Below, in pieces: positions 2,579 to 60,530 of a stretch of 64,000 nucleotides of DNA. Both the position numbers and the translations under genes were made by a program. Location of the stretch: positions 1-64,000 of the forward strand of contig CAUYUJ010000050.1 of assembly GCA_963575745.1 (NCBI GenBank). Reading direction: 5' to 3'. Under the pieces are notes generated by a model. It was given only the letters and a program-made list of their open reading frames with translations, did not search any database and was not told where the DNA came from. The first letter of the stretch is position 1. The number at the start of each line of letters is the position of its first letter. The DNA comes from Prorocentrum cordatum (Eukaryota).

Positions 2579-2600
2579 TCCGTAGCCATCTCGGATCAAG
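2579..2600 (+). other. Relic dinoflagellate spliced leader
   Basis: TCCGTAGCCATCTCGGATCAAG, 19/22 match to DinoSL; ATG follows at 2627. Confidence 0.8.
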
Positions 2601-6257: not shown

Positions 6258-6434
6258 CAGTGGAGACCCATGCCGAGAAACACCCTGCTCGCCTCCAGGG
6301 TGCCCTGGGCTTCTTGGGTTCCGATTCTTGTTGCCGCGGAAAGCGTGACGTTCCCACGCCGAAGATCAGAGGACGTCCTGGGGTTCCAGGGTCGGGTTTC
6401 TTGTGGAAGGTTTCTCGTGGTCGAGCTCCTGCTG
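6258..6434 (+). mobile_element. Tc1/mariner-type MITE, CAGTGGAG family (copies ~17033-17185, 18830-19013, 37932-38109, degenerate ~43669-43890)
   Basis: TA|CAGTGGAG...CTG|TA ends with TA duplication; shared interior in 4-5 copies. Confidence 0.85.
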
Positions 6435-10400: not shown

Positions 10401-13400
10401 TCGTCAGCGGCGGGGACGGCGACGACACGGAGCTCGTGCACCAGTTCGACGGTGGCTGGGTCACGGCGTCGGCGCGCTGGCCTGGGCTGTGGGAGGTCTG
10501 CGCCCTCCCCCCAGTGTTGCTGCCCGACGTCTCCTCCGACCTCGTGGTGCACGCGTCGCCCTCGATGCTGCAGGAGTTTGGTCGCGGGGGCTCCGCCTCC
10601 GCGTGCGAGTACGCCCTTGGTGCTTGGGATGGCTGCCCAGAGGAGGGGGACGATGCGGACTCTATCGTTCATGACCTCGTGAGCGAGGCGGCGCTTCTGG
10701 CCGGCGCGCTATTTTCCGTGCAGTCGCAGGGCTTCGTGCTCGCCGCCTCACCGTGCTTGGCCTCTGTTGGTCTGGACGAGTACGCTTCGGGCTCCTCGAA
10801 GCGGAAAGGGCTGCATCGTCCTCAGCAGCGTGCGCCTTTGCCTCCTCGTGGTGCGCTGGTTAGCTTCTCGCAGGAACAGCCGAGCTCCTCGTCGATCAAG
10901 CCGCCAGACCCACAGGCTGAGCGGCAGCAGCAGCAGTGTTGTCGCAAGCGACCCTGCTCGAGGTCTGCCCGTCGGAGTGTGGCTGCCGATAGGGAGTGCC
11001 CTTCGTGCTGCACGTGTCGTGCTGCTTCTTCCTCGCGGTCTTCATGGTGCTCAGAGGGCGTGCAGCACGGTGAACAGAAAGTTTGCGTAACGGTAGACAT
11101 CCCCCTCTCTCTTTCTTCCCTCCCTCCTTCTCACCTCTCCATCCGCTTCTCTTCTTCCTCCTCCTCCTCCTCCTCCTGCTCCTCCTCCTCCTCCTCCTCC
11201 TCCTCCTCCTCGTCCTCCTCCTCCTCCTCCTCCACCTCCTCCTCCTCCTCCTCCTCCTCCTCCTCCTCTTCATCCTCTCCTCCTTCTCCTCCTCTTCCTC
11301 CTTCTCCTCCTCCTCCTCCTCCTCCTCCTTCTCCTCCTCCTCTTCCTCCTCCTCCTCCTCCTCCTCCTCAGGCGGAGGGGGCAGGCGTGGGCGCGACTGC
11401 GGCCCTCCCTATGGGCCCAGGCTGTGGCTGCCTGACCACAGGCGCGCCACATTCGGGTGCCGTATCCTGCACTACGAGATGGCCAGCATCAGTATCGTTC
11501 AACCGACCCCCATCCCCATCCTCATCCCCTGCGAGACCCCCACCAAATTACCACCCCAGTTGGGGGATGCACCCCTCGAAACCCAGAGGGAACGGCCTAT
11601 GGCCCCATCTATGTGGGCAAATCGGCCAGTGGGGCCCAGGCCACGCCGCTGGGGATGGGGATCGGTTAAACGATACTCGCAGCACTGGCGTGCCTGCTCC
11701 CAGCAGCGCCTCACCGGCGCGAGTGGAGCGCACGAGGGACCCCAGCCCTGCCTGCCGCCCAGCTGGGCCCCCGTGCACAGCACTCAGCGCGCCCCCCCCC
11801 CCCCCCGAGCGCCTGCGGACCAGCGCGCGCCCGACCAGAGATCCAGCACCTCCTCGGCGCCACCCGCTGCAGTGGGACCCCGGGCCAGCAGCTCCACCAG
11901 CGGAGGCCGTCTCCAACAGCGGCGGGCCCCTCTCGGCGCAGCGCGGCGTCCCCGTCGAGACGGCGAGCTGCCCCGCCCGGGCCCCCCCCCCGCTGGCCCA
12001 CAAAGCCGCCGGGTCGGAGCCTCCCGGCGGCAGGCCTTCTGCGCAAGCCGATGGTCGCCCTGCTGGCGGGCCCTCGGTGGGGCCTGCGCCTCGGGCGGCC
12101 GCGGCCGCGGCTCGGGCAGGCAGGGGCGCGCCCCTCTCCCTCTGCGCGGTCGTCCGCGCGGCCACCGCGGCCCTCCCGGCCGAGCAGGACCACCACCGTG
12201 GCGATGGCCCAGTGCAGCGGGCGCCGCCACCACTGGCGTGGGCAGGCCGGGGCTCAGCAGGCCGAGGAGGCGCCGCCGGCGATGTCCAGCGCCCTATTCC
12301 GAGGTCGGCACGTCGGGCCAGCACGGTCCTCCTCCTCCTCCTCCTCCTCCTCCTCCTCCTCCTCCTCCTCCTCCCCCTCCTCCTCCTCCTCCTCCTCCTC
12401 CTCCTCCTCCTCCTCCTCCTCCTCCTCCTCCTCCTCCTCCTCCTCCTCCTCCTCCTCCTCCCCACAAGCCGTCGTAGGGGTGCCGCTTGGTGGTGGTCCT
12501 TCTGCGCAGGCGGACGGTTGCCCTGAGGTCGGGCCTCGGGACGGGGCCCGCGCCTCGAGGTGCTGCGGCTGCGACGACCGCCTGCGCGGCTCGGGCGGGG
12601 GGGGGCAGCCGCCCCCGCAGCGGCCGCGAGGTTGCGGTCGACTGGCTCCTGGAGTGCGCGGGGATGGCTCGGCCAGAGGAGGTAATGCTGGGGAAACAAC
12701 AAGTGGCATAAACATAAGAACTCGGAGGTCCGCGCGGATTTCTCGGATCGGCGCCGGGGCCCTCCGGCGGCGCCTCCGGCGCCGCCCCTGGCGCGCTCCG
12801 CGCGCGAGGGAGGGGGGTCCACCGCCGATCTGAGAAATCCGCGCGGACCTCCGAGTTTTTATGTTTATGCCACTTCTTGTTCTCCTAGTTAAATGCCCAC
12901 TGCGTGGTGGAGAGTCAGTGGGGACGACCATCACAGCGCGCGTGGGCTGCAGCCTAGTCTGGGTCGGGCCGGCTTCCGCAGCGTCGAGCGTGGCGTAGCG
13001 TAGCGGGCAGTCGCCAGGACTGCCGTCACAGCGCGCGTGTCTCGGAGCTGCGGCAGGACCACTTCGACGCCAAGACCGCGGACGACCTCGACGGGATCGC
13101 GGGGAGAAGTCCTGGGGGGGACCCCGTGGAGGGGAACGCCTCAGGCACGCAGTCGCCACGGCGAGCTGGGGGCGTTATGACGCGAAGTCTTGAGGAAGCC
13201 CCCAGCGCGGGGAACGTCTCAGGCTCGACGTCGCCACGTGGAGCTGGAGCCTCGAGAGCGGGCCGCATGGGCGCAGCACGTCAGCGGTATCATCAGCGAG
13301 GTCTACAACGAGTCCCTGGCCCTTGTCGGGGTCACAGACAACCTGATAGACAAGAACCACATCCTGCCCCGTGGCCCGCCTGCGCCCGAGCGGCCGCCGG

Positions 13401-16400: not shown

Positions 16401-19400
16401 CCCCTCCCCCTCCCCCCTCCCCCTCCCCCCTCCGCCTCCCCCCCTTCCTCCTCCTCCTCCTCCTCCTCCTCCTCCTCCTCCTCCTCCTCCTCCTCCTCCT
16501 CCTCCTCCTGCTCCTCCATTTCTCCTTCTTCTTCTCCTCCTCCTCCTCCTCCTCCTCCTCCTCCTCCTCCTCCTCCTCCTCCTCCTCTCCCCCTCCTCTT
16601 CCTCCTCCTCCTCCTCCTCCTTCTCTCCTCCTCTCCTCCTCCTCTTCCTCCTCCTCCTCCTCCCCCCCCCTCCTCCTCGTCCTCCTCTCCCGCCTCCTCC
16701 TCCTCCTCCTCCTCCTCCTCCTCCTCCTCCTCCTCCTCCTCCTCCTCCTCCTCCTCCTCCTCCTCATCCCCCCCTCCACCCCGCCCATTCCTCGTCTCCC
16801 CCCCTGACCTTCGCCCGCCCCTTTCGCTTCACTCTCCCCCGCCTCAGCCTCCGCTGCGCCCGCCCCCTCCCCCTCCTCTCCGCCCCCCCACCCCCCGCCC
16901 ACGCGGCCTGCGCTGCGCTCCGAGCCCGCATCCAGCGGGCGCTCCGAAGGCACCTGCTCATGAGGGAGATCTTGGAGGCTGGCCCGCCTCTCGTCGGTCG
17001 GCTCTCTCTCGGAGGAGGAAAAGGTGCCCACAAAGTGGAGGCCCTTGCTAAAAAGCACCCTGCTTGCCTCCAGGGTGCCGGGGTTTCTTGGGTTTTGATG
17101 GTTTTGCCGTGGAAATGGTGGCGCCCCCACGCCAAAAATCAAGTTTGGTTCCTTGTGGAAGGTTTTTGTGGTCGGGCCTCCACTGTACCGGTACCCTTCC
17201 ATCGTTTTTCCCTTTTCGGGCCTCCTGGGAGCCCCTCGTCGCCACCGCTGGATTCGCCTCGAAATCCTGGTCGGAACGCACCCCGGGAGAGGTCCGGGGA
17301 GTAGCTGTCTCGGTGCTTTTTAGTTTCCCCCCGTTCATCCCCCTGCTGCCTACCGGGACGTCGGATCCGCCGTGCAGGGATGAGGCTGAACCAAGGACCA
17401 CGTTGCTCACCGAATGGGGCTATGGTTAAGTCGGGCCTGTCCCTCTACAGGAGGAGTATTCCAACATAATCAAAAATAGTTGTGGGGACGATTGTTTGAG
17501 CATGGTTTGGCCATTCTTGGGCATTTTTGGGGGTATTTTTGGCGCATTTTGGAGTATTCCTAAAAAGTAGTCAAGCATAGTTTGGGGACGATTGCTTGAG
17601 CATGGTTTGGCCATTCTTCGGCATTTTTTTGTTTTTTCGTCCAACATGTGCCTGTAGGGGGACGTACTTACCCGACCTAAGGCTACACCTTAGGCGATGC
17701 TTAAGAAAACTTGAGTTTTCGGCCAGAGTCTCGATTATTCTTAACGTTTCAATGTAAATCTTAAGATTTTGATAGAAACGTTGGGTTTTTATTCCAGATC
17801 TGAGACGATGAATTTCTTAACCCATGATTTCTTAAGCATTTCGCAGGGTGTATGGTTTTTCGGGTCGCTCCTTCAGTCTGGCTCGGGGAGCCTGTTCGTG
17901 GCCCAAGGCCTGCCGTGGCCGGACACCCACCCCTTCGCTCCCCTGCTCGGTGCTCCTGCTGGCGGCACCGGCGTCTGCACCCTGGGCGGTTTCGCGAGGA
18001 GCGCGGGAATTCCCAGCCTTAGTCAGTATCGTTTAACCGATCCCCATCCCCATGCTCATCCCCTTCGAGACCCCCACCAAATTACACCCCCAGTTGGGGA
18101 TACACCCTTCGAAATCCGAAGTATACGGCTTATATCCCCATCTAAGGGTAAATCGGCCAGTGGGGCCCAGCCCACGCTGGTGGGGATGGGGATCGGTTAA
18201 ACGATACTCACTTAGGGGAACAAGAAGTGGCAGAAACATAAAAACTCGGAGCTCCGCGCGGATTCCTCGGATCGGCGGTGGACCCCCCTCCCTGGCGCGC
18301 GGAGCGCGCCAGGGACGGCGCCGGAGCGCCAGGGGGGTCCAGCGCCGATCCGAGAAATCCGCGGGGAGCTCCGAGTTTTTATTTTTCTGCCACTTCTTGT
18401 TCCCCTAACCCTGTTTTTCGAGCTCCTCTGATGCAGAATTTCGCCTTGTGGATTCCACCGACTCCGTTTCTGCTGCACGTTTGCGGACATATCCGCCCTG
18501 CGTTTTCGGAGGCAGAAATTGCCGCACTTTGTCGCATCGTGTAGGGTGCGTTTCCGACGCACATGTAAGTCGCACAATCAACCAGAGTATTGCGCATCTC
18601 TGTGTTTTGCTTGCTGTGGTGATTCGGCACAGCACGAGGATTCGGTATGTTGCGCTTCGTGGTTCCTTCGTGGTTACTTTCTGGTGGCATCGCGCCGTCA
18701 TCGTGCATTTCGCCGTCCATGCATCGTGCACCGAGAGAAAACGAAGCCTCACACCGTCGGGGTTCACTGCCTGGCCGCTGCCTTTTGTCCCAGTTCAGGG
18801 TTTCGGAGACTTGCAGGTGCACCCGCGTGCAGTGGAGACCCATGCCAAGAAACACCCTGCTTGCCTCCAGGTTTCCCTGGGCTTCTTGGGCTTCGATGGT
18901 TTTGCGATGGAAAGCGTGACGCTCCCGCACCAAAAATCCATGGACGTCCTGGGGTCCTGGGGTCTCAGGGTTGGGTTTCTCGTGGGAGGTTTCTTGTGGA
19001 CTGGCCTCCACTGCAGGCCAGCGATTGCCCCGACAGGCGGCCTGGCAGCCATGGCCTGGTCCCGCGAGCAGAACGCCAAGGGCGCCGAGCTCCTTGCGCG
19101 CGAGGGCCTCGAGAGCCGCGCGGCCTCCGCCGGCGCCTCGCTCGGGGCGGGTTGGAGCCGCGAGCTGAACGCCAAGGGCGCTGGGCTGGTCGAGCAGCCC
19201 GGGCCTCGCGCGGGGGCGGAGCACTCCACGTCCGCTGCCACCCGCTGGCTCTTCTCGTGGTGCCGCTCGCTGAACCCCAGCAGGAGTCCAGGATCACTGA
19301 AGCGGGTCCGGTCAGCGTTCCCAGATCTCCTCGCGCTGTGAAAAATCACGACGGGAGGTTTCTCGTCATTTTCGGCTTCCGAAGGGCCCTTACCGGGCCT

Positions 19401-22400
19401 CAGGACCGTCAACCCCGACTCCGGATCCGCCATACTCTCTGGCTTTTTTCCATCTTAAAATTGCGTCGGAAATCCACCGATGAGAGGCCGAAAAAGTAGG
19501 GCGGAAATTTCTGCACCCAACATACAGTAGGGCGGAAATCCACAGAAGTAGGGCGGAAACAGCAACAGAAAAGTAGGGCGGAAATTGGCATCAGCGGGGC
19601 TTGAAAAGTAAGGCGGAAATTCCAAACCCTACTTACGAATTTCCACAAAGTAGGGCGGATCCGGAGTCAGGGAAAGGCCGACTCGGGACGAGAAACCGGT
19701 CCCAGGGAAGGGGTCCAGATTTTCTGGGGGTCGACGTCGTGAGAAAGTCACGACGTCGGGGGTTTGGGCCCCTTCTGCGACACGTCGTAGGAGTGGCCCC
19801 TCACCGGAGTGGCCTTTGGTGCAGGCCCGCTGTGGCCCTCGGATCGCTGGGTGCGTTGCGATGGCAGTCGCCGGCGCGGCGGAGGCTGGCGGTCCGCGCC
19901 GCGCACCCCCGCGAGCCGCACACCGCACTCTTGCCTAATCTTATGTCGGGCGCGTCTCCCTACACAGCCGTGACAAAAGTTCCTTCAATTTGCTATGATG
20001 AAGATCTCTCCCATCCCTCTCAAGATTCCTAACATGACATGATGCTGGCTGGGATCATTCGGCGGAGTAGTTTCCGATCCCGGAGACGTTAGTAACTCTG
20101 TACCCCAAAGCGGGATCGGAAACTACTCCGCGCCAAACCATATAAATTATCGAGCGGGAAGCGATTGCGCGCACTATTCCGGACTGCTCCGCAGGAGCGC
20201 GTCATTTCAAAAGGCAGATTGAAAGAAACTTTCGTCACGGCGATGTACTGGGAGATTCTCGACGAAATAAAAAACCAGCAATACCCCAAAAAGATACAAC
20301 AATACTCAAACAAATAGTCCCCGGACTATTTTTGGATTATTGTTGGATTATTTTGGGGTATTTATTTATTTTTCGTCGAAAATCCCCCTGTAGGGGGACA
20401 GGCCCGACTTACGCCTAATCGGGTTGACCCAAAAGGGGGTCCAGCGACAGGGTGGTGGTGCAATAGACAAGGTGCCGTAGATGCTTTGGGTCGCAATACA
20501 CTTGGGGCGTGCCATACCTTAAGGGCGCAAGTGTGTATTGCTGGATGTTCGCGCGCAGCGCATCACCTGCAATACAGGGCAAGATCATTCTCCGGCGCAG
20601 CACCTTTGCAATACAGCTTCCCAGATAGATTCGGGTCGAGTGGCCGAGTTCGGGTCGGCCGAGTTCGGGTCGGGTCGGCCGAGTTCGGGTCGGCTGAGGC
20701 CGTTCTTTCGCGTGGCCGAGTCCGGGTCGGCCGAGCCCCGTCGGGAGACGCCCAGGAGGCCCGAGCGCTGCCCTGCCTCGTGGTGGCCCATGAGGCGGCA
20801 GCTCCACGGCTGCCTGGTCAGGTCAGTGCTCGGGCGGCTCCGACGGCGCCAACCACCCTCCTCCTCCTCCTGCTGCTCCTGCTGCTCCTCCTCCTCCTGC
20901 TCCTCCTCCTGCTCCTCCTCCTGCTCCTCCTCCTTCTCCTCCTGCTGCTCCTCCTCCTTCTCCTGCTCCTCCTCCTTCTGTTCCTGGCCCTCCTTCTCCT
21001 GCTCCTCCTCCTCCTCCTCCTCCTTCTGTTCCTGGTCCTCCTTCTCCTGCTCCTCCTCCTCCTCCTCCTCCTCCTCCTCCTCCTCCTCCTCCTCCTCCTC
21101 CTCCTCCCAGGTGGATGTCTCTCTGTGGATCGGCTACGCGTAAGAGCGACCCTTCGCCGGAGCGACCAGGGTCCCCTGGTCGTTGAATCCGAGGCGATAG
21201 CGTTGGCTTGCGTGCTTGGGTCTGACCCGTCCCGCCCCCCGCCTCCCTAAATCCAGGCCTCCCACATGGGTTCCGAGCTGATGGGGTCGCGGGACTGCGC
21301 CGCATCGCCGATGCGTCGCCGATGCGGAGCCTGATCTGCTCCGCTCTGGCATCGCCGATGCACCGCCAAAGCATCGGCGATGCATCGGCGATGCAGCGCG
21401 ATCCTCCGACCCCATCTGCTTCAACCCCCATCTGGAAGGCCTCCACCAGCGGCGGCCGGGCTGCTCCTCCGATCCCCGAGGACGGCCGCCGCGGGCGGGA
21501 GCACGGGAGCGCTCGCCGAGGAGCGCTGCGGCGCCGCGGCCGCGCGCGGGCGTGGTGCCGGCTGGTCCCGCGGGCTTAACGCGGAGGGCGTGGACGTGCT
21601 GGCCGAGGGCCGCCTCATGCAGCACTACGATGAGGCCACCGGTCGGTATCGTCGGGATCAGGGGAGGGCAAGGTACGCACCCACACTGCTGCCCTTCCCT
21701 CGCCTCCGCCTCGTTGGGCCTCCTGGGAGGCCCTCGTCGCCACCGCTCGGAGCACAACGGATATACACGAGTGCCTTTTCTGGCCGCCAGGGGCCCTGAA
21801 AGCTGGGTATCGCAGGATGGTGTTCGTGGCGATCTACTTGGCAGCCGCAGCGGCGTTGTCCCGATGACGGCGGCGGCGCGGGCCCTCTTCGGGGGATGGC
21901 CAGCCGATTCCGCGGGCCCCCACGCGGCCCGGACCCCGCCGACGATGCCAGGGCACTGGGGGCAGCGTCGGTGGATGCCCCAAAACCTGTCAGGACACGA
22001 CTCTGCGTTTACACCGAACCGTGTGTTCACCAATCGCGCCATGTTGGTAGACGTGCAGTCCACCCGGTAAACACACAGAGTGCTACACCGAGAGGGGTAT
22101 GCAGCAGTCACCTGGGCTGGGTTTCGCGACCGGGGGCGGGGGCGGGCCCCTTGGGATACTTTTCGGTCTCCCCTATGGGCCATCGGTCAGTATCGTGTAA
22201 CCGAGATCACTATGCCCACCCCAATCCCCATCCCGATCCCCAGCATCCCAATCACCCCAGTTGGGGATAGGCCCCTCGTAGCCCGAGGGGAGCAGCACAG
22301 ATCTCCACCCGTGGCGGTGCATCGGGCAGCGGGACCCAGGCCACGTCAGTGGGGACAGGGATCGGGCAAGCGATGCTCAAGCGGAGAAGAGTCGAAGAAG

Positions 22401-25400
22401 AAAGAATTTACAACTCGACGAAGAGTCGGGGAATAATAAGAATAATGATAATAATAATAATAGTAATAATAATAATAAAAATAAAAAGATGAAGAAGAAA
22501 GAAGGACACATCATAATAATAAGAAGAAGAAGAAGAAAAAGAAGAAGAAGAAAAAGAATAAGAAGAAGAAGAAGAAGAAGTCGAAATCGATACTCAATCA
22601 CGAACATCAGCTTCCGGAGGTCCGCGAGCAGCTCTTGGATCGGCGCTGGGCGCCGCTGGCGGCGCCTCCGGCGCCGATCCAGGAGAAACCCGCGCGGACC
22701 TCCGAAGCAGAGGCGCCGGCGGGAACGCACGGTCGGGAGCGCCTCCCTGGCTCCTGATCCGCCGTACTTTGGATGATTTTCCGACCTAAAATTGTATCGG
22801 AAATCGACGCCAAAGGAGCCTCAAGGGCGGAAATCGACGCTCAAAGGGGCCTCAAAAGTAGGGCGGAAATTTCCGCCCTACTTTCGAAATCGCCCAAAGT
22901 AGGGCGGATCAGGAGTCAGGGCTGCGCAGCGTGTGCCGCGCCGCCGGTGCTGGCCCACCACGCTGCGGCGCGGCGGGCTGACCACGCCCCCAGTCCCCAA
23001 GCGTGACCTTCCCGGGCCTTGTCCAGCCCTCAGCGGGCCCTGGAAATGACAGGGCCGTTTTTTTTTACCGGTTCCGTTTTGCCGTTTTTTTGCCGGTTCC
23101 GACGCCGTTCTTTTTCCGGTTCCGTCGCCGTTCTTTTACGGATTCCTGCTCCCCGGTTCCAATTTTGGAGCCGTTTCTGTTGCCGTTTCCGGTCGCCGTT
23201 TTTTTTGCCGTTTCCATTTTCAAGGGGCACTTTTTCAGAAACGGTGAAAAAACGGCCCTGCCGTTTCCCGGGCCTTGTCCAGCCCCCCCCCCCGCAGAGC
23301 GGAGCGGCACGCTATCCGCTCGCAAGGCATAGCGTGTCGCCCAGGGACGCCGCCGCGGGCTTCGACGCGCTGAACGAGAGCTCCTGACCGTTAAGTTTCC
23401 ACGGGTCCGCGCGGGCCTCCCAGAGGTTGCTTGTGTGCCGTCGTTTTTTTCTGTGCAGGCCACCATGGTCCCTCCGGGCGTTGCATGGTCGAGGGAGCTC
23501 AACGCAAGGGCAGCAGAGGTCGCCTCCCCCGTCATGCAGCACTACGACGCCATCACCCGTTCGCCACCGGGGGCCACTTGGTCAAGGGACCTCAACGCAA
23601 GGGCGGCAGAGGTCGCCTCCCCCGTCATGCAGCACTACGACGCCATCACCCGTTCGCCACCGGGGGCCACTTGGTCAAGGGACCTCAACGCAAGGGCGGC
23701 AGAGGTCGCCTCCCCCGTCATGCAGCACTACGACGCCATCACCCGTTCGCCACCGGGGGCCACTTGGTCAAGGGACCTCAACGCAAGGGCGGCAGAGGTC
23801 GCCTCCCCCGTCATGCAGCACTACGACGCCATCACCCGTTCGCCACCGGGGGCCACTTGGTCAAGGGACCTCAATGCTAGGGCGCTGGAGACGATGCTGG
23901 CAAAAACCATGCAGGGGCACTCGAACGAGGTCGCCACGCCACCTCCAGGGTCGGTGTGGTCGCGCGAGCTGAACGCCAAGGGAGCTGAGGCTAGGAGCAC
24001 CTCGAGCCGCGGCGGCTGGGACGGGGCGTGGTCTCGTGAACTGAACCGGAAGGGCATGGAGATGGAGAAGGACCAGGCTGGGAGCACCATCATGCGGAAA
24101 CATCATGACGCGATCACAGCAGTGCCTGCTGGAACTGCGTGGTCTCGGGAGCTGAACAGGAAGGCCATGAGCATCGAGGCCGCGAACTCCATGGATGCCA
24201 CCACCGCAGTCCCAGCTGGAAGCTGTTGGTCCAAGGACTTGGATTCGAGCGCGATGGAGGCACAGCTCGAGAAGCACTGCGACGCCATCACGGCAGCCCA
24301 GACTGTCACATGGTCGAAGGAGTTGAACCAGAAGGCCGCGGACAGTGAAGCGGCGTGGTCTATCCAGAAGCACTACGACGCTATCACCGAGGCTGCAGCC
24401 AGAGGTGCTTGGTCCAGGGAGCTGAACCTGCAGGCGGTGGAGGCCTGGGACAACCAGAAGCTGTGCGAAGCGAGGCCCATCCGCCCGCAGACGACCCCGG
24501 AGCTGAAGCCCCACGGGCGAGAGCGCCAGTTCAGCGACGCCAGCACCGCCGCCCCGATGTCCCGACAGGGCACCGAGCGGGCGCTGTCCTGGGCCGAGGA
24601 CGACCTCGACGACGACGACTGGTGCCACGAGGAGCCCCGCGCGCTCGAGCGGTGCGCGCGGATCCCCGAGTGAGCGCCCGAGCCTCGTGGGCGCAGCGGG
24701 GCCGGGCCCCCCCCCCGGGGGCGCCGGCGCGCGCGAGGCGATCGCGGCGCGCGTGGCGGGGGCCAGCGCCAACGGGGGCCAGTCAATCCCTCGAGCTCCT
24801 CTGGCCGACCCGAGGTTGGAAGGCTCCTCCTCCTCCTCCTCCTCGTCCTCCTCCTCCTCCTCCTCTTCCTCCTCCTCCTCCTCCTCCTCCTCTGGAGCCA
24901 GCCCCGCCCTTCCTTCCTCCCTCGGCCGGACCTGTGCGGTTGGCCGTGCAGGGTCCGCGACGTGGCCTCGGTGGACCCGCAGTGGCGTTGGCCCGCGCCG
25001 GTGCGCCCCCCTATGGTGAAGGGCCACACGCTCGGGGGCGGCCGTCGGCGGCCCGAAGATGGGGCCCTGGGGGATGGGGCCCTCTAAGGGCAGGAAGGGT
25101 CCCAGGCTGAATTCGCACCTCCTCCTCCTCCTCCTCCTCCTCCTCCTCCTCCTCCTCCTCCTCCTCTCCTCCACCCTCCCTCCTCCTCCTCCTCCTCCTC
25201 CTCCCTCCTCCTCCTCCTCCTCGTCCTCCTCCTCCTCCTCCTCGTCCTCCTCCTCCTCCTCCTCCTCCTCCTCCTCCTCCTCCTCCTCCTCTGGCCCCTC
25301 GCCCACAGGGCCCCATCCCGCGGGGCCTCATTTTTTGTTTGGAGCCGCCCAGGAAGGCAGGGGGGGGGGGGGGCCCAGGCGGCTCCGAGATGGGGACCTG

Positions 25401-28400
25401 GGGGGGGGATGCCGCCGTTCCCTGCTCAGCGCTCCCGTGGCCGCCCCGCTGTCCAGCCCCCCCCTCTCCTGCACGCCGGCCACTTCGCACTTCGGTCGCC
25501 CCCGTGGCTCATCGCTGGTGCAGCTCGCCCGTCTCTCGGGGGGTCCCATGTCTGAACCGCCGAGGGGGGCAGCGGGAGCGGGGGGGCGTTTTCAGGCGAT
25601 CGCAAACGTGGATCGAGGGGGCGCGGATTAGCGACGGGTCCCGTTTCCATGGGACATCGCGGACTTCCGCCGCCGAGCGAGGCGGCACCGGCCGCATTTC
25701 GGGGAGGGCGCCTCCCCCGATCCATGGATTTGGCGACCGCGCGCCAAATCCATGGATCGCTGAGCCATGTCTGCGCGCCCCCGATGTTTGGGGTGGCAGG
25801 AGGCGAGGGGGGCACTGGGGGGGGGGGGGCAGGTGCGCTCAGACGAGCAGCGGCGGCGGGCCGGGGAGCGCCTAGTGTCAGGCGACCTCGCGTCCGCGTT
25901 TTGCGTCGTCCGGGCTCCGTTTGAAGGGAGCTGCTTTTCCTGCCCCCTGTCGGGGAAACGCAAGTCTCGAGTGAGCCGGAGCTCGGGCTCGCCGCAGTCT
26001 TCTGACGGGCGCGTCCCGGATTTTGGCGGTCCGATTCTCGGGGGATGTCCGCAGCGGGAGCTCGCGCCACATTTCGGAGCGGGTCTCGCCATTTGCACGA
26101 TGGGGCCCCGCCGGGCCGACCCGAGTCCCCCGCACCCGAGTCTTGCGTCTCCCCGACTCTGGGTGCGGAGACAGTGATCGGCGGCGGGCCAAGGGGGGGG
26201 GGGAAGCGAGGCGGGGCGAGCTTGTTCCCAGAGGGCTCGGCAAGCCTCGGGCCTTCCCGAGAGGCTTCCCGGGTCTTCCTCGGAGCCGCGGGCAGCTCCT
26301 CGGGCGGCGCGAGGGCGTCCGAGAGGCCCCGCCGCCTCCCGAGGAGGCCTGCTCCGTCCCACTTCGCACCCCCCCCCCGCGGCGCGTCTCGCCGACGTGG
26401 GGGCGACGACCGGCAGCAGTGCCCCCGTCCGTCTCGGAACGGGGCTCGCGCCGTCGGTGTGGCCGCGGGCGGAGGTCCACCTCCGCGGGAGCGTCGCCTG
26501 CCCCCGGGGCGGCCGCAGAGGGTGCTGGGCAGCACCTGCTGCTCGGCGTCGTGTCCGCATTTGCTGTACCGTCGGGGCCCTGAAGAAGGAACCCTTTTGG
26601 TTGGGGAGGGGCTCCGCGTTCCTTAAGTGTTTCGCAGCTTTTGCCTCAGGTGTTCCTTATGTCTTCGATCGGAGATCGAAGTTTAACTTATGGAAAAAAG
26701 GGGCCTCGGTCCTTCTTTAGGGTCCCTGAGGTCAACGCCCCGACTGTATTCTCTGTGCCCATGTCTCCGGGCACGCCAAGTCAGTTTCTGTGGCTCAGGA
26801 TTTCTGGCCGGGCGTGGTCTCGAGGATCGATCGGGTCCGAAGCCTTTTTTTCCTCCTGGGGCGGTGCGACCCCTCCCGCGTCGTTCTGAAGGGGGTCGGG
26901 GTCGGGGCATTTCAGAGGCTGCGCGTGTCCTGGTTCGATTCAGAAGCGGCCCATGGATCAGTCATCGAGCCCTCGTCGGGCGATCCATAACTCCGTTTGA
27001 ATAAGTTTGCACGACAATTGTCTGAGGAGGACTACCTGCCTCATAGGAGAAAAGCAGCATCTGCATACACTTTCGGAGGTCCGCGCTGTTTTTTCCGATC
27101 GGCGTTGGACCCCCCACTCTGGCGCGCGTGGGGCGACGCCGGAGGCGCCGCCAGGGGGGTCATTCCAGCGCTGATACAACGAGATCCGCGCGGATCTCAG
27201 ACAGTTTGTGGTTATTGCTTTTCTTTTTCTTCTAATGCCATAATTCGGCTGTACATATTCGAGCAGCCTTCGTGGCCCACGTCGGGCTGTGTGCTGTGCC
27301 TGTTTGAAGTCGACGAAATCGGCGCCGACGCCCCCGCAGCTCCCTGCGCCCCGCTCGGGGAGCTGCCTGCGGGCGAGGGCTCGGCTAATACACCATATCC
27401 CGCGCCCTGGCTGATTGGCTGGGGCGATGGCCATTGGCCGATTAGATCTCCCGCCGTGTCCGATTGGTCACAGCACACGTCGATGCGGCCTGCCCGATGG
27501 GCCGATGGGGTCTCCCGCCGTGGCCGATCGGCCAGATCTCAGGGGCGCCCTGGAGTTTCTGCGCTCACATCCGTCGTGGATGGCACCATCAAGCGTTCTT
27601 GATCTCGCAGCCTTGCGTCACCCCTGCGCGTGGCAACGGCCACTGCAGTCGAACGCAGCTGGCCGTTGAGGGTGAAAGAGAGGAATGATGATTGCGAGGC
27701 GAAGCAGAATGGCGAGGATAACAGGGTCTGGCTTGCACTGGGCGGCGAGTACGAGCCCTTGGCCGGTGCCTTCACGAGCACGGCAGGCTTGTGGTCGTGT
27801 CGACGTTTCTGCGGCCCCACCGCTGGCGTTCACGGGTGAACGCCGCCGGTGACTTGAGGTCGGCCGACATCGAACAATTTCTGCAATGTTGGAAGATCGC
27901 GACCTTGCAGTGGTGATCAGTCCACGCGATGTCAGAGCGCGTCATCGCGACGTGAACCCTATAGGAGGAAAAGGTACCCATACCGCTACCCTTCGGCCGT
28001 TTTCCCTTTTTTCGGCTTCCTGGGAGAAACTCGTCGCCTCCGCTGGATTCGCCTCGAAATCCTGGTTAGAACGCACCCTAGGGGGGGGCCCAGGGAGTAG
28101 CAATATCGGTACCTTTTGGTTTCCCCAAACCCGCCGTAAACATGGTGAAACCTGCAAGTACCCTCTCTCCCATGGTTCTAGTCGTAACACCTTTTGACCA
28201 GCCGCCCCACGTTATTACTCTCCCGCGCAGTATTCCGTGGGTGGTCGGTATCACGTGTGTTCCAGTCGATTCCTCGTCGTGATGGGGCTTTCCCGACCCG
28301 AGCGTTCTCACATCATGGCGGTGATGACGTGATGACTGCTGTTCTGCTGCAAGAAGCAGCTCGCAACGTTCAAGGCGACACTCGGCATGGCGGGGGTGAC

Positions 28401-31400
28401 TGGTGTGCTCTTGCAAAAGTCAGCTGACCGCTTTCAAAGCAATTCTCAGCATCCCTGTACATGGGTGCATCGCCTATCGAGACTTACACCTCGAATCAAG
28501 CCCGAATTCACATTCACACCCAGACTCAGACTCATTCACATCTTCAGGCCTTGACGCGCAGTCAGATCCAGATCCACGAATTCGGACCCAGGCTCAGTCA
28601 CAGATCCAGTCGTTGACCTGTATCAGAGAAAGCAGACCCAGATTCAGGTTCAGATTGAGACCAACACTCAGTCAGACCTTGATTCAGATCGAGATTCAGA
28701 CACAGCCTTGGACTCGGACCAGACTCCGGCCCAGACTCAGAGCCAAAGGCAAACTAGTTGCCCAGAGTACGTAGTCCAGCGCGCAGTGCTCGACACATTG
28801 AGCCTGAGTCCTCTATGCTGCATCGTATCTTTATAAACTATAAACAGAGAGAGAGAGAGAGAGAGAGAAATAACAATATGAGAAAGAGACAGAGAGCGAG
28901 GCAGCAGCTTCTGGCACGCGACCTGTGCTACAGGGGCGCTTGTCACCGCACTGCGCTCGAAGCCACTCATCGACCTCGTCCCTATTCTTGAGCAACATCC
29001 GCTTTGAACACATTTCTCTTCGTTTTTCTCCTCTGTTGCTACCCCCATCAACAGCTCATAACTTCTCCTCCAACGGAAGCGCCTGCGATGCCACTTTGAC
29101 TGCGGGCGTGGCGTGCGAGTGAACCTGGAGCCTAAAGGGAAGATCTCGGGGCCCGACCCCCCTGGTTCCATAGGACGTTCGCGCCGCAGCCTCTCACATC
29201 AGCAGCCTCTGCCACTTTTGACCTGCAGCGCTGGTTAAAAAAGGGCATCCGTCATCATCATGGCCTCTGCAGCCAGCGCCACTGCAATTTTGTCTGGCAC
29301 GGTGCTGCTCGCTCTCGTCACCGTCGTTGTTTGGATCAGCAGCTCCCTTCGCCAACGCTCACGGGCCCAGCGCCGCGGCGAGGCAGGTGAGCCTCGAGAA
29401 AGACCCCGCCCCTCTTCGCGATCGGAAGTGTCCTGGTTCTGAAGCCTCCGCTGGCCTCGGCCTGCCTCGAGGATGCACGGGGCCCTGTCCCATCCTTCTG
29501 TCTCGCGTGGGTGCCGCCGTGGAGGCCAGCAGCCGGTGGAGAGGCCACGGTGCCCGCGAGACGGGGCCAGCCGTGCCTTCGGTCTTGGTGCATGCACGTG
29601 CAGACTGGTGCTGCCTGTGCCCCCCTGACGTTGCCACTCGGGATGGAGGGGGAGCAGGAGACAGAGGAGGAGTGGAAACAGGAGGGGAGAAGCATCGAGG
29701 AGCATCGAGGATCGAGGAGGAGGAGGATCGAGGCTCGAGGAGAAGGATGAGGATCGAGCCGCGCCCCTGGAGCGGACGTATATCCGGCCTCGGGGGACCC
29801 CGCCCCGGCCCGGCCTCGTGCTCGGGCCCGCTCTCCGCCCCTGGGCCCCTGGGGCCCGGCCGCGCCCAAGAGCCCAGGCCCGACGAGTCGAGCCCGGCCG
29901 AGTGCACCACGTGGCTTGCGCAGCATAGCTTGCACCACGTATCACCACCCACCAAACCACCCCAACCCAACCCGAAGGCTCAGATTTACCCTCGATTTCC
30001 AGTGGGGGGGGGGTCGGGAAACATCGAAAAAACACGTGTGGAACCCTTCCCCCCCAACCCGAAATTCGGGTCTTCGGGTTGGGTTGGGGTGGTCTGGTAG
30101 GTAGTCAACGTAGCCTGCACCACTGAAGTTGCACCACGTCTTATGAAGCAAGCCAGCTTCCACCACGTGGACTGCATCGCATGCGTGGCACCACGTCGAG
30201 TGCACACCGAGGTTTGGGCGCAGCCTGTCATCACGATGTGCTTGAAGCACGGGACGTCTTGTAGCACTTCGAGTAGGCGAGGCGTCTGCAGTTGAATGTT
30301 GATACTTTTGTCGTTGAAATAGTAGTCTCTTTCCCCGTCGCTGGCGTAGCTGATCGTTGTGATCCCTCCGTCGTGTTCGCGTTCAGAGTTTTCCTGGACC
30401 AGCTGGCAGTGGCTCCTCCACGTCACGGCCGAAGGCAGGCCTATCCGGAGAACGACACCACCAGTTCCTCCTCCTCCAAGACCCTAAGATGTGCCGAAGA
30501 CCGACACCTGCCCAAACCTGCCGAGCAGCGCAAAGACCAGGCTGGCGTCGAGTTCGGGGCCATCGTAGGGCGGGCCCACGACCTCGAACGAGAGTGCCCC
30601 AGAATCCTTTGTGTGCCCCGGCACCCCTCTCGCCACGACGTCCACCGAGAGTGCGCGCAAAGAGAGACTGCCCGGCGCGTGCGACGCGCGCCCTCGTGCT
30701 TCAGACACCACGCGCAGCTCTGACACCGGAGACCAGGAGAGCTGTAGACTGCCTCGGTGCCTCCAGGGCCTTCGCCGCGACCCGGGGGACCCACGATGCT
30801 GTTGCCGAGGGCCCGTGTCGCTGGCCTGAGTGGGCTCGAGGGTTCTCGTTGTTGGGCTCGGGGCCCTGCGCCCTTTGCCCGATCGAGCTCACGGGCGCCC
30901 TTCCCGACGCGGCCGCCTCCGGTCCAGCTCCGGAGGTCCTGTGCCCAGAGAAGCGGGTCAACGGTTCACCACCCACCAAACCACCCCAACCCAACCCGAA
31001 GGCCTCAATTTGCCCTCCATTTCCAGTGGGGAGGGGGTCCGGGAACATCGAAAAAACACGCATGGAGCCCATACCCCCCCCAACCCGAAATTCGGGTCTT
31101 CGGGTTGGGTTGTGGTGGTCTGGTAGGTAGTCAACGGTGCCCAGACACTTGGGCGCACTAGCAGGCTGCGGAATACTTGCACGGTTGGCTTCCAGGCGGT
31201 GCAGAACCACGCGATCAAGTGTGCCCGGGAGCGGACGTGTTGGATTTGCTGGATCCTTTGGTGACGAGACTATTCCCGCAGACACCGCCGCTTCTACCAG
31301 CCCCTCTCCATCAGAGTGCCCTCTGAATTCTCTAGGTGCGCGGTCGCCGAGCAGGCAAAGCAACGGGGCACCCGCGGCTTTAGGCGGAGGTGGAGTCGGG

Positions 31401-34400: not shown

Positions 34401-37400
34401 CTTCCAATGCCCCCTGGCTTCCCGATGGGCGGCCTAGCACTCGGCCCCACAAGTGGTGGAGTCAGCTTCGCGCCGACCTGCTGGAGGCCGCCACCGTGGC
34501 GGACAGCGCCGGCCTCGAGCATGCTGCCGACGATCCGCGTCTGCTCTTCCTGGACGAGTACGTGAAGGATGCGTTCTGCAGGCTGGACATGGCCATCTTG
34601 ACAGCGCGGGAGTTGCACCATCGTGAGATTCCGCCCCCGCACGCCGCGGCGCCTCCGCTCGCCGAGGCTGCTGCGCCGGTTGCCCCAGGAGGCTGGCGCA
34701 CAGTGTACACCTGCACGATCGCCACGGACACCGGCGAGGAGTGCGGCCGCAGCTTCGAGACGGACCGGCAGTTGCGCGCCCACCAGACGGCTGCCAGAGG
34801 CGGTGGCCATGGGCGCACGCAGCTGGCGACAACGCTTGCCGTGGCCAATCGGTGTCCCCTATGCCTTGCGGTGCACAAGAGCCGGCATGTGACTCGTGCC
34901 CACGTGACGAAGAGTTTGCAAAGAGGTCGTTGTCTGAAGGAATGGGAAAAAGGCAGCCGCACCGAGACCGACACCACAACAAGTCCTCCGTACACGTGTG
35001 ATTTATGCGATGTCAGCTTCGACACGTGGCTCGCCTTTCACCATCACGCCTGGATGGCCCATTTGGGCGGCCTGGGTGATTTCTTGACCGATATGTGAAG
35101 GCGTCCTGGAGCGCGACGCGTCATTGGCCCGTTCATCTTTATATATATATATGGCTTAGGGCGGACATTGCAGCAGAGGTCAGAACAGGAGGGTTGCGAT
35201 AGTCGTCTTGACCCCTACGTGAATTACGACAGCATCCACATGATACGCTTCATGGCGCATTCGTATCTTCCACCTGCCTGGATTTGTTTTCTTCCAGCGC
35301 AGCCGTCTGGCCCGGCAGGTTGCCCTGGCACCTCGCACTGCTCCTCGGCGTTTCTGTCTGCCTGCCGCGCCGCCTTCCGAGCCATGGAGCAGTGGCGGCA
35401 GGCCCTTGGCGCAGCCGCTACCCCCGCCATCGAGCCCCCGGCCGGCAAGAAGGGGCGCCGCGGCCAGGAACGCTTGTATTGCGAGTTGATGAAGACAGCC
35501 GCCAAACTGAGCTTAAATAATGCCCAGGATGTGGCGCGCATCGCTGCCCTCGCGTACTTCTCCTACGACGTGCCCGAAGATGGAGAGATTGACAAGGCAG
35601 TCACCGGCGCAGCCCGCGCCCACAATGACAAGTACAAGGGGCAGTCCGGCCATCATGGCGGGTCGCCGGACGTCCACAGTTTCATTGCAATTTTGCTGGC
35701 GCTGCACGGCCACGGCGGCCCCGAGCACAAGGAAGAACATCGAGACCTTCATGGGGGGCTTCTCGCCGGAGAACCCCCACATTCAGCAAGTGGTCGGGCG
35801 TTGCGTGTGCCAGCAGGCCTTCAAGTCGGACCGCCGGAAGCTCTTCTTCAAGCTTCTCCGGGCCCCGGGGCTCACAGAAGCTGACAAGAACGTGCCCGAG
35901 GATACTGTCGACAAACTCTTGACCACGAATGGCGCTGTCCGCAAGCTCGGGCGCGCCCCCCGGGGCTCACTCGAGCGTCGGGCCCAGCAGCTGCTCGACC
36001 TGATCTCCCAGGGCAAGAGCGACGCCGACCTCGCCACCGTCGACGCCGGCAAGGGGGCCTTGACCGAGGAGTCGTGGTCATGTTGCTGCTCTCGTCGTCC
36101 TCCCCCTCCTCCTCCTCCTCCTCCTCCTCCTCCTCCTCCTCCTCCTCCTCCTCCTTTTTCCTCCTCCTCGGCCTCCGCGCGCCGTTGCGACAGGCCGCCG
36201 GGCGCCGTTGCGACAGAATTGCTGCAATTCCTGTCGCCGGGCGCCGTTCCATTTATTTTCCGTCGCAAGCTTCTGAGAGGGTGCAGCAGCTGCACCAGCA
36301 ACCTCCGGCAGGCAACGCCGAAATACACACGGAATGCGTATTCCGGGCATGGGCGCCGTCCGCGAGGGCTCGGCAGCCAGGGCCATCCAGTGTTGTTTTG
36401 TTCACGTGTATGTGGGGGCCCGCTTGGCTGTCTCGAGCCGCTCTCGTGGCTTCCGCTCTTGCCCCCCCCCCCCTCTTTGCCTCTCCTCTTCGCCTCCTCT
36501 CGTCGCCCCCTCTCTCTGGCAGGGGAAGAGGGTTAGCACTCGCGCTACGTGTCTCCTGAAGCGGAGACCTTTTCCGCCTGAGGTCCACTCCTTTTTCTGA
36601 GTCGTGCAGCAGTCGATGGATCTCGCCGAGCGGTTGCTGTCCTGTCCTGTGTCCTCCTCCTCCTCCTCCTCCTCCTCCTCCTCCTCCTCCCCCCTCCCTC
36701 CTCCTCCTCCTCCTCCTCCTCCTCCTCCCTCCTCTCTCCTCCTCCTCCCTCCTCCTCCCCCTCCTCCTCCCCCTCCTCCTCCCCCTCCTCCCCCTCCTCC
36801 CTCCCCCTCCTCCCCCCGCCCGCCGCAGGTGGACGCGGACCTGCTGTGCCTGCAGGCCGGGCCGACGGGACCTGCGCGCACACGCCGCCCCTGGCCGGGC
36901 CCACCCTTAGGGTCCGGGATCGGTGCGTACAGTCGGGGCGCTGAAGAAGGAATCCTTTTCGCTGGGGAGGGGCTCGGTGTTCCTTGATTGTTTCAAAGTT
37001 TGCCTCGGGTTTTCTTGGGGGGGTTCCGTAGGAGATCGCGGTTGAACTTATGGGAAAAGGGGCCTCGTTCCTTATTTAGGGTTCCTTAGGTCAACGCCTC
37101 GACTGTATGTATAGGGGGCCAGATGCGAACCCTACCCCTACCCTTTGTGGGCCCCGGAAACGGCAGGGCCGTTTTTTCACCGTTTCCCAAAAACTGCCCC
37201 TTGGAAATGGAAACGGCAAAAAAACGGCGACCGGAAACGGCAAAAAAACGGCTCCAGGTTTGGAACCGGAGCCGGGACCGGTCAAAAAACGGCGACGGAG
37301 CCGGTAAACAAACGGCGTCGGAATCGGCAACAAAAACGGCAAAACGGAAGCGGTAAAAAAACGGCCCTGTCGTTTCCAGGGCCCACTAAGCCCCTACCCC

Positions 37401-60464: not shown

Positions 60465-60530
60465 TCCGTAACCATTTGGCTCAAGCCATTCTGGCTCAAA
60501 CCATTGTGGCTCAAGCCATTTTGGCTCAAG
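60465..60530 (+). other. Tandem of four relic spliced leaders
   Basis: TCCGTAACCATTTGGCTCAAG + CCATTCTGGCTCAAA + CCATTGTGGCTCAAG + CCATTTTGGCTCAAG. Confidence 0.95.

What the first reader, a model, noticed from the sequence alone, without database searches (positions are those of the whole stretch)
19051..24673. Same-strand nested gene encoding an unrecognised WSRELN/HYDA repeat protein
Seen: the W-S-R-E-L-N motif recurs at about 19057-19175, about 21563 and about 11 times in 23459-24673, with a HYDA(I)T submotif. The gene has its own intron(s) yet sits within the 16978-36828 intron of the PDE12-like gene on the same strand. I do not recognise the repeat family. Its ~31-aa period with an invariant Trp suggests a structural or filament-binding repeat (inference). 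Same-strand nesting of a spliced gene poses a splice-site choice problem.
Basis: partly seen in the sequence, partly recalled or inferred. Interest (0 to 1): 0.7.

Follow-up and report, generated by a model that had tools for sequence, protein, structure and literature searches.

The report
Expressed orphan Trp-repeat gene, nesting unproven
This is a real, spliced and expressed gene of the bloom-forming dinoflagellate Prorocentrum that encodes a repeat protein known only from that genus, but nothing I could test shows that it lies inside another gene's intron.

Summary
The repeat is real. The strict motif W[ST][RK][ED]L[ND] occurs 12 times, all on the + strand, against a mean of 0.02 in shuffles. 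Two degenerate copies bring the total to 14 units.

The gene has three exons: 19051-19283, 21481-21634 and 23459-24673. They encode 533 aa. Both introns (GA..AG and GC..AG) are skipped in assembled contigs of public runs. A 440-aa database protein matches the three exons letter for letter. PolyA RNA libraries hold exon 3.

The nearest proteins are Prorocentrum cordatum "unnamed/uncharacterized" models. A profile search of 1.84 billion representatives found only this family. Pfam, PDB sequences and the ESM Atlas give nothing. AlphaFold2 (mean pLDDT 36) and the Atlas model of a paralogue (0.33) give no confident fold.

The nested-gene reading is not supported:
- no 16978->36828 joint in 4 runs;
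- no Exo_endo_phos hit in 324 + strand ORFs;
- the upstream "exon" looks faintly like an IQ motif;
- a second spliced unit lies in the same interval.

Nested genes are in any case common in dinoflagellates (PMC12584245). Contigs also start upstream of the proposed 19037 spliced-leader site.

Verdict: an ordinary lineage-specific repeat gene of unknown function.

The parts
18820..19018 (+). Copy of a dispersed ~190-200-bp element with 10-nt terminal inverted repeats, directly upstream of the mRNA body. One spliced contig (run X5) skips it exactly.
   Evidence: Other copies at 6258-6420, 17034-17185, 37932-38109 and 43659-43731, at 79-84% identity. Joint 18819->19019 in 1 of 4 runs.
19017..19050 (+). 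5' UTR. It follows an AG at 19015-19016, which I infer to be the spliced-leader or cis acceptor; this is not shown.
   Evidence: Contigs begin at 19019 (X5, X15), 19023 (X1) and 19031 (X12). Sequence read.
19051..19283 (+). Exon 1 coding part. ATG at 19051; holds units 1 (WSREQN) and 2 (WSRELN).
   Evidence: P0002 residues 1-78 map to 19051-19284. Paralogues start M-x-W-S-R.
19284..21480 (+). Intron 1, 2197 nt, GA..AG followed by G. Contains a (CCT)n run at 20857-21107.
   Evidence: Joint 19281->21479 (4 letters fit either side) in X1, X5 and X15, 3 of 4 runs. Sequence. TRF.
21481..21634 (+). Exon 2. Holds unit 3 (WSRGLN ... HYDEAT).
   Evidence: P0002 residues 79-131 map here. Contig pieces 21479-21632.
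21635..23458 (+). Intron 2, 1824 nt, GC..AG followed by G.
   Evidence: Joint 21632->23457 (8 letters fit either side) in X1 and X15, 2 of 4 runs. Sequence.
23459..24673 (+). Exon 3 coding part. Holds units 4-14, a conserved Ser/Thr-rich and acidic C-terminal tail, and the TGA stop at 24671-24673.
23486..23884 (+). Recent tandem amplification of the 93-bp (31-aa) unit, 4.3 copies. Units at 23579, 23672 and 23765 are identical.
   Evidence: TRF. 93/93 identity. The repeat unitig 23566-23688 has about 3x the depth of the unique exon-3 contig: 96 vs 32.3 in X5 and 28 vs 11.4 in X12.
24674..24816 (+). 3' UTR, as far as contigs reach. A (CTC)n run starts at 24824.
   Evidence: Contigs end at 24693 (X12), 24742 (X1, X5) and 24816 (X15). 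TRF.
16900..16977 (+). Alleged last host exon before the 'host intron'. Not supported as part of a PDE12-like gene.
   Evidence: No Pfam hit. No database protein holds it. Best PDB match is an IQ motif, E 0.045.
36829..36855 (+). Alleged 27-nt host micro-exon (VDADLLCLQ) between an AG and a GC. It is the only motif in the window reminiscent of the endonuclease/exonuclease/phosphatase fold.
   Evidence: Sequence. Regex scan. No contig reached 36247-36903 in any of the 4 runs, which shows nothing either way.

Best explanation
The segment is an independent, expressed three-exon gene of a Prorocentrum (best match P. cordatum).

Shown:
- The pre-mRNA loses a GA..AG and a GC..AG intron, both followed by G, as is usual in this genome.
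- The mRNA encodes a 533-aa protein made of 14 units of about 31 aa. Each unit opens with P-G-x-x-W-S-R-E/D-L-N-A-K-A-A-E. About half of the units close with H-Y/C-D-A-I-T before a Pro/Gly linker. A conserved Ser/Thr-rich, acidic tail follows the repeats.
- The family is detectable only in Prorocentrum.
- The array grows and shrinks in 93-bp steps.

Inferred:
- Two structure predictors give one helix per unit at best and no confident fold. The composition is Ala/Ser/Arg/Glu-rich and poor in bulky hydrophobic residues.
- The protein is therefore most likely a cytosolic protein that folds only on binding, and that presents many copies of one short Trp-anchored docking helix to a repetitive or oligomeric partner.
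- The partner is unknown.

The gene is best read as one unit in a same-strand array of transcription units, not as a gene shown to be nested in a host intron.
For: Gene model:
- P0002 (440 aa) maps letter for letter onto three + strand blocks.
- The joints 19281->21479 and 21632->23457 appear in 3 of 4 and 2 of 4 laid runs.
- GA and GC donors make up 23.8% and 51.4% of P. cordatum donors, and AGG acceptors 79.7% (PMC10666404, Table 2 passage).

Expression: 19 of 24 listed runs, from 7 studies, hold at least half of the exon-3 words. Three of them are on record as polyA RNA.

Coding constraint:
- dN/dS is 0.46 over 368 codons against the homologue L001.
- The order of unit spacings is kept in a paralogue of 44% identity.

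Restricted family:
- 7 hits among 5.8 billion clusters, the named ones all P. cordatum.
- 7 hits at E<=1e-3 among 1.84 billion representatives. Five are family members and two are unrelated repeat proteins.

No described family.

No confident fold:
- AlphaFold2 mean pLDDT 36.2, pTM 0.16, helices coinciding with units.
- The Atlas model of paralogue P0007 has pLDDT 0.33 and pTM 0.14.

Composition: pI 6.0, GRAVY -0.63.

Array dynamics:
- Three identical 93-bp units.
- Deposited isoforms of 523/492/461 aa and 340/309 aa differ by exactly 31 aa.

Other units in the interval: a second spliced unit at 25835-27678 appears in 4 of 4 runs.
Against: - The kind of runs X1, X5 and X15, which carry the joints, is only guessed. 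The one laid run on record as RNA (X12) covers exons 1 and 3 but has no joint-bearing contig. A processed DNA copy elsewhere in the genome could in principle give the joined contigs.
- Contigs show neither strand nor true ends, and no spliced leader was seen.
- The binding function is pure inference. No partner, localisation or proteomic evidence was examined.
- Strongly conserved polar residues could equally be helix caps of a fold that the predictors miss because the alignment has only 5 rows.
- Nesting is unsupported, not refuted.
Confidence: 0.6

Rival explanations
1. One reading: the gene is nested, on the same strand, in a 19.85-kb intron (16978-36828) of a PDE12-like (endonuclease/exonuclease/phosphatase fold) host gene.
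For: - The peptide ending ...REILE before a GC at 16978, and the 27-nt block VDADLLCLQ between an AG and a GC at 36829-36855, would together resemble the start of that fold. The resemblance is recalled and the sequences were read.
- P. cordatum introns are long, 4709 bp on average (PMC10666404).
- 25.2% of Amphidinium carterae genes are reported as nested (PMC12584245).
Against: - No joint 16978->36828 in 4 of 4 runs (no proof of absence).
- 0 Exo_endo_phos hits in 126 + 95 + 103 + strand ORFs.
- No further recalled hallmark motifs of the fold downstream on the + strand.
- No database protein of 82-2000 aa holds the upstream peptide (weak evidence).
- The upstream peptide's best PDB match is an IQ motif, and no nuclease appears up to E 10.
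Confidence: 0.12
2. The repeats are a cytoskeletal-filament-binding module (microtubule or actin), working like tau/MAP or nebulin repeats: each unit folds onto one subunit of the polymer.
For: - A period of about 31 aa, Pro/Gly linkers, many tandem units, no autonomous fold.
- Strictly conserved polar and aromatic residues in each unit.
- The likeness to tau and nebulin periods is recalled, not tested.
Against: - No Pfam match to the tubulin-binding, nebulin or STOP/MAP6 families, or to any other family, at E<=5.
- No localisation or binding data.
- The period varies from 23 to 37 aa, which fits a fixed polymer lattice poorly.
Confidence: 0.2
3. The ORF is a transcribed but functionless, fast-evolving repeat, for example a young lineage-specific gene kept by chance.
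For: - Genus-restricted.
- No predicted fold.
- Unstable array.
- dN/dS of 0.46 is only moderately low.
Against: - A paralogue of 44% identity keeps the start, the unit order, the invariant W/S/L/N and H/D/T positions and the C-terminal tail.
- The frame stays open through 533 codons.
- The sequence is found in runs of 7 studies.
Confidence: 0.08

Closest known systems
Lineage-specific ('dark') genes of dinoflagellates, here the deposited P. cordatum models CAK0788418/420/422/423 ('unnamed protein product' / 'Uncharacterized protein')
   Same: It is the same locus product. P0001 is 95% identical over 90% of exon 3. The models have no annotation and no Pfam domain.
   Different: The deposited long models read exon 1 in another frame, so they lack units 1-2. 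They hold 1-3 of the near-identical units, where the window DNA has 4.
Tau/MAP2/MAP4 tubulin-binding repeats (Pfam PF00418; features recalled)
   Same: A period of about 31 aa, Pro/Gly-containing unit ends, tandem arrangement, no autonomous fold.
   Different: No sequence or profile match. The units are anchored on W-S-R-E-L-N and H-Y-D-A-I-T, unit length is variable, and binding is untested.
Nested genes in long dinoflagellate introns (Amphidinium carterae, PMC12584245)
   Same: A short, better-expressed gene lying among long, repeat-rich non-coding DNA on the same strand as its neighbours.
   Different: No host transcript joins across it here, and the host's identity is unsupported.
GW/WG 'Ago-hook' Trp-repeat platforms (recalled)
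   Same: A disordered protein with many Trp residues flanked by small residues, and a fast-changing repeat number.
   Different: Only 3 of 21 Trp are preceded by Gly and none is followed by Gly. The strongly conserved non-Trp motif residues are not typical of such platforms.

Membership tests
Any described protein repeat or domain family (Pfam-A) | A profile match at or near the gathering score | tested here: not met
   0 families at E<=1 for the exon-3 ORF. 0 for P0002. Only two single-member chance hits among 5 family members at E<=5.
Tau/MAP tubulin-binding repeat | 31-32-aa units matching PF00418 (the PGGG-type unit end is recalled) | tested here: not met
   The period fits, but there is no PF00418 hit.
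Nebulin / MAP6-SAXO type filament-binding repeats | A profile match to the respective Pfam families | tested here: not met
   No hit.
Apolipoprotein/perilipin-like amphipathic helix repeats | A high helical hydrophobic moment in each unit | tested here: not met
   The moment at 100 degrees has z = -1.6 to +1.2 against shuffles of each of the 14 units.
GW/WG Argonaute-hook platform | Most Trp residues adjacent to Gly | tested here: not met
   GW 3 and WG 0 of 21 Trp.
Nested gene in a host intron | Host exons on both sides joined in one transcript | tested here: inconclusive
   No such joint in 4 runs. The stretch laid left only 74-75 nt beyond each boundary, and the second block is a 27-nt exon.
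Nested gene in a host intron | Flanking exons belong to one recognisable host protein (PDE12-like, Exo_endo_phos) | tested here: not met
   0 hits in 324 + strand ORFs. Motif scan. IQ-like best match for the upstream block.
Dinoflagellate spliceosomal introns | G[T/C/A] donor and AG acceptor followed by G | tested here: met
   GA..AG|G and GC..AG|G. Frequencies are in PMC10666404 Table 2.
Introner elements (as defined in PMC10666404 methods) | An inverted repeat of 8-20 nt near both intron ends | tested here: not met
   No exact inverted match of 7 nt or more within 60 nt of the ends of intron 1 or intron 2.
Spliced-leader trans-spliced mRNA | Spliced-leader sequence at the 5' end of the transcript | not testable with these tools
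   The contig ends shown carry no readable leader. The homologue contig L001 has none either. No leader-like sequence lies at this gene in the window.

The most novel reading that the evidence does not exclude
The W-S-R-E-L-N / H-Y-D-A-I-T unit defines a new, Prorocentrum-specific class of repeat that folds only on binding. Its 9-14 copies dock side by side on a periodic cellular structure, such as the cortical cytoskeleton or another polymer. Copy number is tuned by unequal exchange of the 93-bp unit. The gene may in addition truly sit in a ~20-kb intron of a same-strand host.
Probability: 0.15. Interest if true: 0.5.

Novelty: new member of a known kind. Interest (0 to 1): 0.3.

Why it matters
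- It gives a corrected gene model for an unannotated P. cordatum protein: the true start, two non-canonical introns and the full repeat number.
- It defines a compact consensus for a genus-restricted repeat that could be used to find the protein in proteomes and to test binding.
- It shows that a plausible-looking nested-gene call, built on two short peptide resemblances, does not hold up against domain searches and transcript contigs.
- Beyond that, it is one of very many uncharacterised lineage-specific genes in a 4-Gb dinoflagellate genome.

Tried and rejected
- Whole-frame translation for a Pfam scan was not accepted because of stop codons. I scanned stop-to-stop ORFs instead.
- No whole genome is held for this window.
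- The amphipathic-helix (lipid-binding) idea was rejected by hydrophobic moments.
- Introner-type terminal inverted repeats were not found in introns 1 and 2.
- The Atlas feature search gave no usable hit for P0002 or P0007. The Atlas structure rows for P0007 all have TM by query <=0.41 on a model of pLDDT 0.33, so they mean nothing.
- I did not send my AlphaFold2 model to the fold search, because at pLDDT 36 the matches would be meaningless.
- The PDB profile search gave 0 hits.
- Rfam (gathering threshold) and tRNA scans of the window gave 0 hits.
- Minus-strand ORFs across 18.2-26.6 kb gave no real Pfam hit in 19 ORFs, only one low-complexity CDC45 match.
- The metagenome scan returned a single homologue contig, L001, with no spliced leader at its end.
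- Earlier notes of this scan held nothing relevant.
- A literature search for the motif strings found no relevant paper. The 4 hits were misspellings of an unrelated medical word.
- No contig covered 36247-36903 in any of the 4 laid runs, and the 16978->36828 joint was not seen. This is not evidence of absence.
- The joints 24742->25682 (12 foreign letters between; X1 only) and several other single-run joints with 21-28-nt sides were treated as assembly chimeras or repeats.
Full report
**What the window is.** The 64-kb window has 50-74% G+C in 2-kb steps and holds no N. The best protein matches of the repeat ORF are 'unnamed protein product [Prorocentrum cordatum]' at 95% identity. P. cordatum is a dinoflagellate. 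Its published genome has 59.7% G+C and introns averaging 4709 bp. Its donor sites are GT 24.7%, GC 51.4% and GA 23.8%, and 79.7% of acceptors are AGG (PMC10666404, passages with Table 2). No whole genome is held for the window.

**The observation.**
- A six-frame scan for W[ST][RK][ED]L[ND] finds 12 hits, all on the + strand. One is at 19153. Eleven are in a single frame between 23486 and 24410.
- Fifty shuffles gave a mean of 0.02 hits and at most 1.
- With the degenerate WSREQN (19057) and WSRGLN (21563), the spliced protein has 14 units. Spacings are 32, 71, 33, 31, 31, 31, 31, 33, 24, 37, 29, 28 and 33 aa.
- Eight of the 14 units carry H[YHC]D[AE][IA]T.
- Tandem Repeats Finder reports a 93-bp period, 4.3 copies, 98% matches, at 23486-23884. 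Three of these units are identical at 93 of 93 bases. The first differs from them at 3 bases.

**Gene model.**
- The database protein P0002 (440 aa, from 1.5-kb contigs) maps without a mismatch to 19051-19284, 21482-21640, 23465-23605 and 23885-24670.
- Read against the sequence, this gives exons 19051-19283, 21481-21634 and 23459-24673, with a TGA stop.
- Intron 1 is 19284-21480 (GA..AG, then G). Intron 2 is 21635-23458 (GC..AG, then G). Both donor types are normal for this genome.
- Laying contigs of four public runs on 16904-36903 showed the joint 19281->21479 in X1, X5 and X15, with 4 letters fitting either side. It showed 21632->23457 in X1 and X15, with 8 letters fitting either side. Single contigs run exon 1 - exon 2 - exon 3.
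- Caveat: the kind of X1, X5 and X15 is only guessed. X12, the one laid run on record as polyA RNA, covers exon 1 (19031-19279) and exon 3 (23566-23688, 23845-24693) but has no joint-bearing contig.
- Expression rests also. Nineteen of 24 listed runs, from 7 studies, hold at least half of the sampled words of 23885-24900. Three of them are on record as polyA RNA-Seq.
- The intron-less homologue contig L001 (61% identity) has the same start context and open frame.

**The 5' end.**
- Contigs begin at 19019 (X5, X15), 19023 (X1) and 19031 (X12). The 5' end is therefore not at 19037.
- The nearest upstream AG is at 19015-16. A spliced-leader acceptor there is my inference.
- No leader sequence was visible. 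A leader-like pattern (typed from recall) matches only at 2580, 9770, 60510 and 63586.
- In X5, one spliced contig carries 28 further letters that lie at 18792-18819 and skips 18820-19018.
- The skipped piece is a copy of a dispersed element with 10-nt terminal inverted repeats. Other copies lie at 6258, 17034, 37932 and 43659.
- Whether the element is spliced out of a longer 5' UTR or is absent in that strain is open.

**The deposited models.**
- NCBI holds several isoforms of this locus on one 119-kb contig: 523, 492 and 461 aa, and 340 and 309 aa.
- The long ones read exon 1 in a different frame. They begin SSGFRR... instead of MAWSREQN..., so they lose units 1 and 2. The transcript-like P0002 and all paralogues start M-x-W-S-R.
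- The isoforms differ by exactly 31 aa and hold 1, 2 or 3 of the near-identical units. The window DNA holds 4.
- The collapsed repeat unitig 23566-23688 has about three times the word depth of the adjacent unique contig: 96 vs 32.3 in X5 and 28 vs 11.4 in X12. This fits the full genomic array being transcribed and the shorter forms being assembly collapses. It is only a hint.

**How far the family reaches.**
- The word-indexed search of 5.8 billion clusters returned 7 proteins. The named ones are all P. cordatum. The others come from short JGI contigs.
- A profile of five members, run against 1.84 billion representatives with no length limit, returned 7 proteins at E<=1e-3. Five are family members. 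Two, at E about 2e-5, are unrelated repeat proteins.
- One paralogue (P0007, 44% identity, on another 320-kb contig, also in MMETSP) carries the UniRef name 'Phospholipase B-like' without any such domain.
- The family is thus detectable only in Prorocentrum.

**Is it a described repeat?** No.
- Pfam gives 0 families for the window ORF at E<=1.
- Across five members at E<=5 it gives nothing recurrent.
- A profile search of all PDB sequences gives 0 hits at E<=1.
- The ESM Atlas gives no usable feature hit.
- The motif strings are in no relevant paper of the searched library.

**Shape and constraint.**
- AlphaFold2 on the 5-row alignment gives mean pLDDT 36.2 and pTM 0.16. No residue reaches 70. 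It draws one helix per unit, broken at the Pro/Gly linkers.
- The Atlas's own model of paralogue P0007 has pLDDT 0.33 and pTM 0.14.
- The protein has pI 6.0 and GRAVY -0.63. It is rich in Ala, Ser, Arg, Glu and Gly, has 21 Trp and is poor in Phe, Tyr and Ile.
- The units are not amphipathic helices. The hydrophobic-moment z-score runs from -1.6 to +1.2.
- Across 45 distinct units from four members, W is 100%, S +1 89%, R/K +2 94%, E/D +3 76%, L +4 84%, N +5 89% and G -3 68%. Twenty-two units have the second anchor, 15-27 residues after the Trp and most often 17-19.
- The order of unit lengths is kept between paralogues. The C-terminal tail (K-P-H-G-R-E-R-Q-x-S-D-x-S-T-A-A-P ... acidic run) is conserved.
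- dN/dS against L001 is 0.46 over 368 codons.
- Together this is a constrained protein without a predicted fold. My best reading is a multivalent binder that folds only on its partner. The partner is unknown, and this step is inference.

**The nesting claim.**
The pair recalls the start of the endonuclease/exonuclease/phosphatase fold. That resemblance is recalled, not tested.
- There is no Exo_endo_phos hit in 126 ORFs of 80 aa or more (5.5-47.5 kb). There is none in 95 ORFs of 25 aa or more next to the alleged exons, and none in 103 ORFs of 70 aa or more in the rest of the + strand.
- A scan for other recalled hallmark motifs of the fold finds none downstream on the + strand. The only other + strand hits are a GDLN at 8002, upstream, and a loose S/T-D-H/Y pattern at 40918.
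- A search for longer proteins holding the upstream peptide finds none (weak evidence).
- The upstream peptide's best PDB match is a sodium-channel IQ motif (E 0.045). No nuclease appears up to E 10.
- No contig joins 16978 to 36828 in 4 runs.
- The same interval holds at least one more spliced unit (25835-27678), with joints 26570->26731 GT..AG, 26802->26988 and 27043->27231 in 2 to 4 of the runs each.
- Nested genes are in any case reported as 25.2% of genes in Amphidinium carterae (PMC12584245, passages). Nesting would therefore not be unusual even if true.

**Verdict.** The repeat family is undescribed and genus-restricted. The nesting and the proposed spliced-leader site are unsupported. 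Function is unknown beyond the inference above. This is a sound but ordinary lineage-specific gene, already present in public annotation under uninformative names and with a faulty N-terminus.

Noticed in passing
window 25835-27678: A second spliced transcription unit inside the alleged host intron. The joints are 26570->26731 (GT..AG, in 2 of 4 runs), 26802->26988 (TC..CA, in 4 of 4) and 27043->27231 (TA..CT, in 4 of 4). It has no convincing ORF and no Pfam hit. Two of the skipped pieces (185 and 187 nt) have non-canonical ends, and one has a 9-nt inverted repeat near its ends.
   Followed up: partly
window 6258-6420, 17034-17185, 18820-19018, 37932-38109, 43659-43731: A dispersed ~190-200-bp element with terminal inverted repeats. 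Only the copy at 18820-19018 ends in ...CTGCAG, which creates the AG just before the WSRELN mRNA body. The copies at 17 kb and 38 kb read ...CTGTAC there.
   Followed up: partly
window 2580-2600, 9770-9790, 60510-60530, 63586-63606 (+): Four matches, each with 3 mismatches, to the recalled dinoflagellate spliced-leader core, all on the + strand, against 0 expected. The one at 9770 sits at the start of a 916-codon open frame (9776-12523). This looks like the relict leaders of retroposed genes.
   Followed up: no
window 16900-16977 (+): The peptide ARIQRALRRHLLMREI resembles the calmodulin-binding IQ motif of sodium channels (PDB 6mue_B, E 0.045). It may belong to an upstream gene.
   Followed up: no
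window 18238-18904; similar translated stretches at about 12.7 kb, 43.3 kb and 45.2 kb: Another dispersed repeat. Its translated frame recurs (...GAAPGALRAPGRG.HRRS.KSAR...). This bin has the highest contig depth on the laid stretch (457 in X1), with many loose ends at 18333 and 18363.
   Followed up: no
window 26571-26730 and 36932-37086: Two 80%-identical copies of a ~160-bp element. One is removed as a GT..AG intron of the downstream unit. The other lies right after the alleged host micro-exon.
   Followed up: no
window 41350-43100: A long array of 22-bp units, in both orientations of translation (AEAEAE / RLRLRL frames). The window also holds very long (GGA)n and (CCT)n runs at 4.2-4.5 kb, 8.4-9.5 kb, 16.4-16.8 kb, 20.86-21.11 kb, 25.1-25.3 kb, 39.3-39.9 kb and 50.8-52.3 kb.
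   Followed up: no
protein P0007 (paralogue, other contig): UniRef names this 496-aa WSRELN-repeat paralogue 'Phospholipase B-like'. It has no Pfam domain on record and consists of the repeat. This is probably a misnomer.
   Followed up: partly
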